Shown: positions 3,281-3,580 of the stretch, one piece after another
How the letters are laid out: each line of letters starts with the position of its first letter
Position numbering within the stretch: position 1 is the stretch's first letter
Source: a virus
Lineage: Duplodnaviria > Heunggongvirae > Uroviricota > Caudoviricetes
Reading direction: 5' to 3' (one strand)
Virus record (IMG/VR): IMGVR_UViG_3300028965_000026
DNA length: 26,162 nt
The notes under the pieces: model-generated
Database searches by the model: none
Seen by the model: only the letters and a program-made list of their open reading frames with translations
Told to the model about the DNA's origin: nothing
Translations under genes and position numbers: made by a program

Positions 3281-3580
3281 ATGATGGAAAAAACAGAAAA
3301 CAAACCGATTGTAATTGGTGCTGATGCTGCTCCGTTTAAGTTTGAGTTGTCTCAACTGGTGGAGATGCGCATCAGTGATGAATGGGGCGAGGTTAAAGCC
3401 CGCGCGCAGTATGCGGATGGCGAAAACCAGTACTTGATCCACTACAAAGCAGCTGATGGTCGCGCCACGACGGAGTGGTTTGGTGAGTCAATGCTGGAAG
3501 CAACAGAAGATGATCGTCATCCTGGTTGTCCGGTATTTGCTGGTATGGAATTACCGGAAGGTGCGGTAGTTACTGAGTAA
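3281..3580 (+). CDS. Hypothetical acidic protein (about 98 aa), accessory gene
   Basis: AGGAG at 3273-3277, tandem ATGs at 3281 and 3284. Product MMEKTENKPIVIGADAAPFKFELSQLVEMRISDEWGEVKARAQYADGENQYLIHYK... has no signal peptide and no recognisable motif. Followed by a hairpin at 3592-3616. Confidence 0.6.
   Translation: MMEKTENKPIVIGADAAPFKFELSQLVEMRISDEWGEVKARAQYADGENQYLIHYKAADGRATTEWFGESMLEATEDDRHPGCPVFAGMELPEGAVVTE

What the first reader, a model, noticed from the sequence alone, without database searches (positions are those of the whole stretch)
3281..3580. Small acidic cytoplasmic protein of unknown function in the accessory island
The 98-99-aa product (MMEKTENKPIVIGADAAPFKFELSQLVEMRISDEWGEVKARAQYADGENQYLIHYKAADGRATTEWFGESMLEATEDDRHPGCPVFAGMELPEGAVVTE) has a good RBS, no signal peptide, no HTH and no motif I recognise. 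Small acidic phage proteins in moron positions are often inhibitors of host enzymes or defence systems (DNA mimics, anti-restriction or anti-CRISPR-like proteins).
Basis: inference. Interest (0 to 1): 0.4.

Follow-up and report, generated by a model that had tools for sequence, protein, structure and literature searches.

The report
Phage-borne HspQ-like small barrel protein
The ORF is a real, conserved 98-residue acidic prophage protein whose predicted fold and sequence profile most resemble the bacterial protease regulator HspQ (YccV family), so it may tune host protein degradation, but its function has not been tested.

Summary
Window 3284-3580 (+), or 3281 as an alternative start, encodes a 98-aa cytoplasmic protein with pI 4.5. 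It has an AGGAG ribosome-binding site and is followed by a hairpin terminator. It is the homologue of phiP27 L33 and belongs to phrog_1935, both of unknown function. It is under purifying selection (dN/dS about 0.14) and occurs in 164 of 5426 complete E. coli genomes. It belongs to a family of about 750 50%-identity clusters, mostly from Proteobacteria and their phages. No Pfam, NCBIfam or PADLOC model matches. A confident AlphaFold model (pLDDT 89) is a small SH3-like barrel. Its best solved-structure match by two programs is E. coli HspQ/YccV, and a profile-profile comparison agrees (probability 86%, E 5.5e-6; shuffles and four other small barrels score far lower). It lacks HspQ's internal insertion and its Lon-binding C-terminal tail. 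Its position in the genome varies: after the lysis cassette, next to terminase genes, or among early genes. No partner gene is conserved. At this locus the gene is present, extended or absent among otherwise similar prophages. My best guess, at about 0.3, is a stand-alone HspQ-like module that binds host AAA+ protease machinery (Lon or ClpS). The DNA-mimic or anti-restriction idea has no specific support. I rate it a new variant of a known kind, of moderate interest.

The parts
3273..3277 (+). Ribosome-binding site AGGAG, 6 nt upstream of ATG 3284 and 3 nt upstream of ATG 3281
   Evidence: Read directly from the sequence. It is conserved in most close alleles.
3284..3580 (+). Coding sequence of the 98-aa protein (alternative start 3281 gives 99 aa). 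Homologue of phiP27 L33/P27p33; RefSeq WP_001542813.1; phrog_1935.
   Evidence: dN/dS about 0.14 over 42 alleles.
3329..3508 (+). Core domain of about 60 residues (residues 17-76 in the 99-aa numbering). It is a small SH3-like beta-barrel shared by the whole family, with conserved F19, F21, S32, E34, G36, R41, Y51, Y55, W66 and L72. This is the part that resembles HspQ/YccV.
3509..3577 (+). C-terminal tail specific to the enterobacterial subfamily (DDRHPGCPVFAGMELPEGAVVTE). The HP..P motif aligns with HspQ H81-P85. Some alleles carry a further 34-aa module after this tail.
3592..3616 (+). Intrinsic-terminator-like hairpin (11 bp, 7 G-C pairs) followed by a T-rich tract. In 51 of 86 related loci the shared mosaic block ends just after it, at about 3620.
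   Evidence: The same hairpin follows the alternative cassette contents and the remnant in phage cdtI.
2900..3624 (+). Mosaic block that travels together in close relatives: the 51-aa lipoprotein ORF (2954-3109), a 174-nt spacer, the target gene and the terminator. This is context, not a demonstrated functional unit.

Best explanation
Shown. Window 3284-3580 is a genuine protein-coding accessory gene of a phiP27-like/lambdoid prophage. It lies in the late operon, after the lysis cassette and before the terminase genes. Its product is a soluble acidic protein of 98 aa. Residues about 17-76 form a small SH3-like beta-barrel, and the closest known relative of that barrel, in both structure and sequence profile, is the YccV/HspQ domain. 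I put the fold-level assignment at about 0.75.

It is a minimal version of that domain. It lacks HspQ's 15-residue insertion between strands 2 and 3, and it lacks the C-terminal Lon-binding tail that carries the K96 acetylation switch. It has family-specific conserved surface candidates (S32-x-E34, R41, D59) and a tail of its own.

Inferred. The domain occurs alone, in many genome positions, without any conserved partner gene, in phages of many Proteobacteria. That pattern suggests it acts by itself on a conserved host factor. HspQ is a Lon substrate and allosteric activator and a ClpS inhibitor, and the plant Clp adaptor ClpF is listed among proteins with a YccV-like domain. The most likely mechanism is therefore that it binds the host AAA+ proteolysis machinery (the Lon N-domain or ClpS) as an HspQ-like mimic or competitor that is not itself degraded. 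Late in infection this would alter which host or phage proteins are degraded.
For: Fold:
- The AlphaFold model built on 91 sequences has pLDDT 89, and all five models score 86-89.
- Foldseek on the second model also ranks 5ycq first, at E 2e-3 against 4.5e-2 for the next hit.

Sequence profile:
- hhalign of the family profile against an HspQ alignment gives probability 85.7%, E 5.5e-6 and score 36.4 over 72 columns.
- Forty column shuffles reach at most 18.4, and the reversed alignment scores 11.3.
- Against single sequences, HspQ scores 29.1. R67 DHFR, NusG-KOW, spectrin SH3, SMN Tudor, a PsaE-like sequence and Hfq score 7.5-11.6. Four of these control sequences were verified against PDB.
- The aligned conserved positions are KF, Q..V, G.V, Y, E..L and HP..P.

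Independence of the gene:
- Its position varies and no partner gene is conserved.
- It shows presence/absence polymorphism at an otherwise identical locus.

Literature on HspQ and related proteins:
[quoted passage not shown] When acetylated at K96 it accumulates and inhibits ClpS (PMC6719616, PMC10665427).
- HspQ is a trimer proposed to dock on the Lon N-domains, and the T4 protein PinA is a phage-encoded Lon inhibitor (PMC8835725).
- The plant Clp adaptor ClpF works with ClpS1, and the same paper lists the YccV-like superfamily among the domains it maps (PMC8889267). That ClpF itself carries the YccV-like domain is from my own knowledge.

Both proteins are acidic: pI 4.48 for the target and 4.53 for HspQ.
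Against: - No sequence-only method links the family to YccV. Pfam PF08755 is not hit at E<=1 by the target, nor at E<=0.01 by 60 distant members. HMMER searches against PDB do not find HspQ.
- The parts of HspQ known to matter for Lon, the C-terminal sequence and K96, are absent. The alignment stops at HspQ residue 88-89.
- The residues most conserved in the phage family (S32, E34, R41, Y55) are not conserved in HspQ. The binding partner could therefore be different.
- SH3-like barrels bind many kinds of ligand.
- Domain fusions in distant members give no hint of proteolysis.
- No interaction or expression data exist.
Confidence: 0.3

Rival explanations
1. It is a stand-alone binding module that engages some other host or phage protein unrelated to proteolysis. 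On this view the resemblance to YccV reflects shared ancestry or fold only, and says nothing about the target.
For: The family-specific invariant residues differ from those of HspQ. HspQ's Lon-binding tail is absent. Small SH3-like barrels are very common among uncharacterised phage proteins. Genome position varies and no partner gene is conserved.
Against: No alternative target is suggested by any data. Three independent comparisons single out HspQ rather than other barrels.
Confidence: 0.27
2. This is the first reader's idea: an inhibitor of a host defence system, such as a DNA mimic, an anti-restriction protein or an anti-CRISPR-like protein.
For: The protein is small and acidic, with net charge about -11. 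It is an accessory gene with presence/absence polymorphism. In some phages the homologue lies among small early genes, for example Bcep176 gp32, or next to DNA methyltransferase or Mom-like genes.
Against: In this prophage and many others it lies in the late operon after the lysis genes, so it would be made too late to protect incoming DNA. The structural matches that carry a description are not DNA mimics or anti-defence proteins, and the viral-library matches are almost all uncharacterised. Acidity is only moderate and is shared with HspQ. About a quarter of family members have a pI of 5.5 or above.
Confidence: 0.13
3. It is a DNA-packaging or head-assembly accessory factor that works with terminase.
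For: The gene recurs next to terminase genes. It lies just upstream of Nu1/terS or HNH-terS in lambdoid prophages. It lies between terS (gpM) and the head-tail adaptor in P2-like phages. It lies directly upstream of terS in a Neisseriaceae prophage. In the diverse set, three downstream neighbours are terS and at least three are terL.
Against: The same gene is paired with two unrelated packaging modules, lambda Nu1/A and phiP27 HNH/terS/terL. It is absent from prophages with the same lysis and packaging genes. Other family members lie in early, recombination or replication regions. The lysis-packaging junction is a well-known insertion hot spot (established knowledge of lambdoid phages), which explains the adjacency without implying a function.
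Confidence: 0.1
4. It is a nucleic-acid or replication-related factor, following the older reports on YccV/HspQ: binding of hemimethylated DNA, or modulation of DnaA.
For: [quoted passage not shown] Many structural neighbours (KOW, Tudor, PWWP) bind nucleic acids or chromatin. Some homologues lie next to DNA methyltransferase genes.
Against: The protein is strongly acidic (pI 4.5), which argues against direct DNA binding. The DnaA effect of HspQ may work through Lon, given that DnaA is listed among Lon substrates (PMC8835725); this link is my inference. The late-operon position does not suggest replication control.
Confidence: 0.08
5. It is a lysis accessory protein, for example a regulator of holin or spanin timing.
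For: It lies immediately downstream of the lysis cassette in this prophage. The upstream neighbour is an Rz-like spanin in at least 6 of 47 diverse loci.
Against: It has no membrane segment, signal peptide or lipobox. Many homologues lie far from lysis genes. It is absent from prophages with the same lysis cassette.
Confidence: 0.05

Closest known systems
HspQ / YccV (E. coli; PDB 5ycq; Pfam PF08755 YccV-like), a heat-shock protein that is a Lon substrate and allosteric activator and, when acetylated, a ClpS inhibitor
   Different: The target does not match the Pfam model. It lacks the 15-residue insertion between strands 2 and 3. It lacks the C-terminal tail (residues about 89-105, including K96) through which HspQ binds Lon and is regulated. 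Its invariant surface residues differ. It is phage-encoded and mobile, whereas hspQ is a chromosomal gene in the literature read.
phiP27 L33 (P27p33, NP_543085.1) and PHROG families phrog_1935 and phrog_8618
   Same: These are direct homologues: 98% amino-acid identity to phiP27 L33, and E 1e-60 to phrog_1935. In phiP27 the gene has the same position after the lysis cassette.
   Different: All of these entries are annotated only as hypothetical or of unknown function. They name the family but explain nothing.
Phage-encoded modulators of host AAA+ proteases: T4 PinA (Lon inhibitor); and, from my own knowledge, T7 Gp4.5 (Lon) and lambda CIII (FtsH)
   Same: The proposed logic is the same: a small phage protein binds a host protease and changes what gets degraded. 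PinA appears to compete with HspQ for Lon (PMC8835725).
   Different: No sequence or structural similarity to these proteins was seen. The analogy is purely functional and has not been tested.
Generic small beta-barrel domains (KOW, Tudor/chromo/PWWP, eL27, PsaE/NdhS, R67 DHFR)
   Different: There is no profile signal: hhalign scores are 7.5-11.6 against 29-36 for HspQ. Structural fits are mostly looser than the 1.6 A fit to HspQ.

Membership tests
YccV-like / HspQ superfamily | Small SH3-like barrel with HspQ-type topology | tested here: met
YccV-like / HspQ superfamily | Match to the curated family model (Pfam PF08755) at its threshold | tested here: not met
   The target gives no Pfam hit at E<=1. 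None of 60 distant members hits PF08755 at E<=0.01. HMMER profiles against PDB do not retrieve HspQ.
YccV-like / HspQ superfamily | Remote sequence homology detectable by profile-profile comparison | tested here: met
   hhalign gives probability 85.7%, E 5.5e-6 over 72 columns. Shuffled controls reach at most 18.4 against 36.4 for the real alignment. Other small barrels score 7.5-11.6 against 29.1 for HspQ. The support is moderate, not decisive.
HspQ proper (Lon specificity-enhancing factor) | C-terminal Lon-binding sequence with the regulatory Lys96 | tested here: not met
   The alignment ends at HspQ residue 88-89. The target's tail, PGCPVFAGMELPEGAVVTE, contains no lysine and is unrelated to HspQ's tail. 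The requirement comes from PMC6719616 and PMC10665427.
HspQ proper (Lon specificity-enhancing factor) | Insertion between strands 2 and 3 (HspQ residues about 33-47) | tested here: not met
   The hhalign alignment shows a 15-residue gap in the phage family at this position.
HspQ proper (Lon specificity-enhancing factor) | Trimer formation; activation of Lon; binding of ClpS | not testable with these tools
   No complex prediction or experiment was available.
Moron (autonomous accessory gene in a prophage) | Own promoter and terminator, atypical base composition, variable presence among related phages | tested here: inconclusive
   A terminator is present at 3592-3616, but no sigma-70-like promoter was found on the + strand. 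GC3 is 0.43, against 0.60-0.64 for the lysis genes and 0.58 for terL. The gene is present, extended or absent at the same site in different prophages.
DNA-mimic / anti-restriction proteins (Ocr or ArdA type) | Very acidic surface that mimics DNA, early expression, characteristic folds | tested here: inconclusive
   The pI of 4.48 is only moderately acidic. The gene lies in the late operon in this prophage. The structural matches that carry a description are not DNA mimics. No anti-defence profile library was available; PADLOC holds defence systems, not anti-defence proteins, and gave no hit.

The most novel reading that the evidence does not exclude
Temperate phages of Proteobacteria carry a widespread, previously unrecognised family of minimal HspQ mimics. 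These would bind the host Lon N-domain or ClpS without being degraded and so reprogramme host regulated proteolysis during late infection. Possible effects include stabilising phage proteins or blocking Lon-dependent activation of toxin-antitoxin systems. This would be a new class of phage-encoded protease modulator, derived from a host regulator fold.
Probability: 0.2. Interest if true: 0.65.

Novelty: new variant of a known kind. Interest (0 to 1): 0.4.

Why it matters
Only a few specific protein regulators of Lon have been described (PMC10665427 names two, SmiA and HspQ, before adding LarA). Phage-encoded modulators of host proteases are also few: T4 PinA (PMC8835725) and, from my own knowledge, T7 Gp4.5 and lambda CIII.

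A phage family of about 750 50%-identity clusters built on the HspQ fold would give a concrete hypothesis, testable with standard Lon and ClpSAP assays, for a common 'hypothetical' gene of E. coli, Shigella, Salmonella and Yersinia prophages, including Stx-phage relatives such as phiP27. If the hypothesis held, these proteins could also serve as natural probes of how HspQ-type domains engage Lon and ClpS.

If the hypothesis fails, the result still places phrog_1935 and phrog_8618 in a defined fold class and shows that the gene is an exchangeable accessory cassette.

Tried and rejected
Searches that returned nothing useful:
- Pfam, NCBIfam and PADLOC scans of the target gave no hits.
- HMMER profiles of the family against all PDB sequences gave only chance matches, to a superoxide dismutase motif and to ATPTT7.
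- Foldseek against viral predicted structures returned almost only uncharacterised small barrels, all with E > 1e-3.
- The AlphaFold-database library was not available.
- Literature searches for phiP27 L33, the accession numbers and the PHROG id found nothing relevant. A search for 'YccV' with 'phage' found no phage homologue.

Leads that proved uninformative:
- Larger distant members (343, 388, 272, 257, 226 aa and others) gave no informative Pfam domains. There were single hits to Lcl_C and weak hits to Tudor-knot and Anti-TRAP.
- The search for related loci with the broad alignments failed because no stretch was conserved enough. I replaced it with a degenerate DNA pattern for YKAADGRAV.

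Readings I rejected:
- The 90% cluster that holds the target also contains 116-aa HNH endonucleases. BLASTP shows no similarity (E 1.1), so this is a clustering artefact and not homology.
- The tblastn match to residues 78-98 in phages cdtI and phi458 is a DNA remnant read in another frame, not a shared protein module.
- The overlapping ORFs 3142-3324 (+), 3194-3442 (-) and 3315-3437 (+) are rejected as coding, because the codon-position pattern of variation and the dN/dS value fit the target frame.

Full report
**The observation.** ATG codons lie at 3281 and 3284, the stop codon ends at 3580, and AGGAG lies at 3273-3277. RefSeq annotates the 297-nt form in an identical E. coli prophage as WP_001542813.1, a hypothetical protein. 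Homologues start MEK/MKK, so 3284 is the likely start, giving 98 aa. The product has pI 4.48, with 20 acidic against 9 basic residues. It has no hydrophobic segment and is predicted to be all-beta.

**It is a real gene.**
- There are 109 homologous 90% clusters, all from Enterobacterales and all named hypothetical.
- There are 751 50%-identity representatives at E<=1e-3 in 1.84 billion proteins.
- Across 42 unique alleles, 41 are intact. Variable sites by codon position are 25/20/45, and dN/dS is about 0.14.
- The gene occurs in 164 of 5426 complete E. coli genomes, with up to five copies per genome.

**Identity.** The DNA is 97.5% identical to phage phiP27 across gene L33 (P27p33), which is annotated hypothetical. 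The protein matches phrog_1935 (E 1e-60) and phrog_8618, both of unknown function. Pfam, NCBIfam and PADLOC give nothing. Isolated phages with homologues are phiP27, vB_EcoM-613R2, Yersinia phages vB_YpM_41 and 44, the P2-like ESSI2 phages (where the gene is literally labelled 'L33'), Burkholderia phages Bcep176 (gp32) and phiBt-TXDOH, and a Bordetella phage. All these homologues are uncharacterised. I found no paper on the protein.

**Anatomy of the family.** The conserved unit is a core of about 58 residues: FKFxLxQxVxIxxSGExGxVxxRAEYxxxENxYxxxYKAADGRAxxxWFxESxL. Many members are nothing more than this core, at 57-65 aa. The enterobacterial subfamily, to which the target belongs, adds a tail: EDDxHPGCPVFAxxxLPEGAxV. 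Tandem duplications and a few larger proteins exist, but their extra regions match no informative Pfam family.

**Fold.** With a 47-sequence alignment, only one of five AlphaFold models was confident. With 91 diverse sequences all five were: pLDDT 86-89 and pTM 0.71, with six strands between residues 25 and 84.
- Foldseek with the second model also ranks 5ycq first, at E 2e-3 against 4.5e-2 for the next hit.
- The viral structure library returned almost only uncharacterised small barrels.

**Sequence-profile support.** I verified the HspQ sequence against PDB and built an HspQ alignment.
- hhalign of the phage-family profile against the HspQ alignment gives probability 85.7%, E 5.5e-6 and score 36.4. 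It aligns 72 columns, covering the whole barrel and an HP..P motif after the last strand.
- Forty column-shuffled HspQ alignments reach at most 18.4, and the reversed alignment scores 11.3.

The profile signal is therefore specific to HspQ and is not a general property of small barrels. HMMER alone does not see the relationship, so this is remote homology at moderate confidence, about 0.75.

**Differences from HspQ.** The phage domain lacks HspQ's 15-residue insertion between strands 2 and 3. The alignment ends at HspQ residue 88-89. The phage protein therefore lacks the C-terminal sequence through which HspQ activates Lon and is recognised by it, including the Lys96 acetylation switch (PMC6719616, PMC10665427). 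The invariant residues of the phage family (S32, E34, R41, Y55) are not those of HspQ.

**Genomic context in this prophage.** The order of genes is:
- antiterminator (seen in the identical E. coli prophage, upstream of the window);
- an AraC-family ORF and two tRNAs;
- two holins;
- an M15 endolysin;
- a 37-aa ORF and a 51-aa lipoprotein ORF;
- the target;
- a terminator;
- an F4/K88-family fimbrial subunit gene;
- Nu1-type terS and terL.

The gene thus lies in the late operon. No sigma-70-like promoter precedes it, and a strong hairpin follows it.

**Context in close relatives.** In 86 close relatives the gene always follows the lipoprotein ORF and the lysis cassette. What lies downstream differs: lambda-type Nu1/TerL, phiP27-type HNH/terS/terL, and rarely the fimbrial gene. 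The shared block ends at about 3620, just after the terminator, in 51 loci, and at about 3560-3570 in 28.

**The site behaves as a cassette.**
- 39 loci carry the 98-aa form.
- 23 loci carry a 130- or 131-aa form with an extra 34-residue C-terminal module, for example ETEC H10407.
- E. coli JNE25-003 has only a 35-aa ORF corresponding to that extra module. The target is absent there, between the same flanks.

The lysis cassette is found in 363 E. coli genomes, against 164 for the target.

**Context in diverse relatives.** I examined 22 species genomes and 43 viral contigs.
- The upstream neighbour is an Rz-like spanin in at least 6 of 47 loci. Elsewhere it is terS, terL, a DNA methyltransferase, Ant, SSB or a ribonucleotide reductase subunit.
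- The downstream neighbour is a head-tail adaptor in three P2-like phages, where the gene sits between terS and the adaptor. Elsewhere it is terS, terL, HNH, exonuclease VIII/RecT or a dNMP kinase.
- In Bcep176 the gene lies in a run of tiny early genes.

No partner gene is conserved.

**Interpretation.** The steps that are shown: this is a real gene, under purifying selection, encoding a soluble acidic small barrel whose nearest relative is HspQ/YccV, and it is an exchangeable accessory gene with no fixed partner. The steps that are inferred are as follows. A single-domain protein that moves freely between genome contexts, in phages of many Proteobacteria, most likely acts alone on a conserved host component. 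HspQ is a Lon substrate and activator and a ClpS inhibitor (PMC6719616). It is proposed to dock as a trimer on the Lon N-domains, where the T4 inhibitor PinA may compete with it (PMC8835725). The plant Clp adaptor ClpF works with ClpS1, and from my own knowledge it carries a YccV-like domain (the superfamily is listed in PMC8889267). The most economical hypothesis is therefore an HspQ-like mimic or competitor that engages Lon or ClpS without the degradable tail. I give this about 0.3.

**Rivals.**
- Another, unknown binding partner: 0.27.
Late-operon placement and the absence of DNA mimics among the described structural matches weaken it.
- Packaging or assembly accessory: 0.10. Adjacency to terminase recurs, but the gene pairs with unrelated packaging modules and is dispensable.
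- DNA or DnaA-related function, as in the older HspQ reports: 0.08. The protein's acidity argues against it.
- Lysis accessory: 0.05.

**Verdict.** The finding is real and better defined than before: a phage-borne, minimal HspQ/YccV-like domain family that is not in Pfam. It is a new variant of a known kind rather than something categorically new. Its function remains untested. Interest is moderate (0.4). It would rise to about 0.65 if the protease-modulator hypothesis were confirmed.

Noticed in passing
window 3971-4795 (+), with terminator-like hairpins at 3881-3900 and 4823-4850: An orphan F4/K88-family fimbrial subunit gene (Pfam Fimbrial_K88, E 2.7e-58; signal peptide present) sits alone between the target and terS. 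No usher or chaperone gene accompanies it in this stretch. It has low GC3 (0.37) and is flanked by terminators, so it looks like a classic moron. It is present in only 4 of about 86 related loci and in 2-3 complete E. coli genomes. Relatives at 82% nucleotide identity lie on plasmids.
   Followed up: partly
window 3284-3624; L151 3989-4381 (ETEC H10407); L152 3988-4095 (E. coli JNE25-003): The site between the 51-aa lipoprotein ORF and the terminator is a cassette with three states. State one is the 98-aa protein (39 loci). State two is a 130/131-aa form with an added C-terminal module...LQPGEVFVMTDIIDGKPQYSRIEMNSKSARLIRE (23 loci). State three is a 35-aa ORF alone, MWKPTGDKLITALIDGKPQYLRTEMSGQHARLIRE. 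The small module is uncharacterised.
   Followed up: partly
L153 2500-2610 (phage cdtI orf60); also phage phi458: The last 63 nt or so of the target gene, plus its terminator, survive as a remnant joined out of frame to an unrelated ORF after the Rz gene. This recombination scar marks the terminator region as a mosaic joint among lambdoid phages.
   Followed up: yes
window 53-550 (+), 931-1006 and 1010-1084 (+): An AraC-family regulator ORF (HTH_AraC, HTH_18), tRNA-Thr and tRNA-Gly lie between the antiterminator region and the lysis genes. In phiP27 this slot holds tRNA-Ile, tRNA-Arg and the stx2e genes. GC here is low, about 0.41-0.42.
   Followed up: no
window 1642-3109 (+): The lysis cassette is unusual. 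It has two holin-family genes (Phage_holin_8 and a 3TM holin) and an M15 endolysin. After these come only a 37-aa ORF with a C-terminal hydrophobic segment (2812-2925) and a 51-aa lipoprotein ORF with an LVGC lipobox (2954-3109). No Rz/Rz1-sized spanin genes were recognised; the two small ORFs may be the functional equivalents.
   Followed up: no
protein cluster of the target (no window coordinates): The 90%-identity cluster that contains the target (941 members) also holds 116-aa HNH endonucleases, the neighbouring gene L34 in phiP27-type phages. BLASTP shows no similarity (E 1.1). This is a clustering artefact that could mislead automated annotation.
   Followed up: yes
distant family members P0164, P0159, P0177, P0170, P0200, P0110, P0114: Some distant members fuse the core barrel to a Cys-rich C-terminal region or to repeated unknown modules, or carry it in tandem. 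None of these extra regions matched an informative Pfam family.
   Followed up: partly
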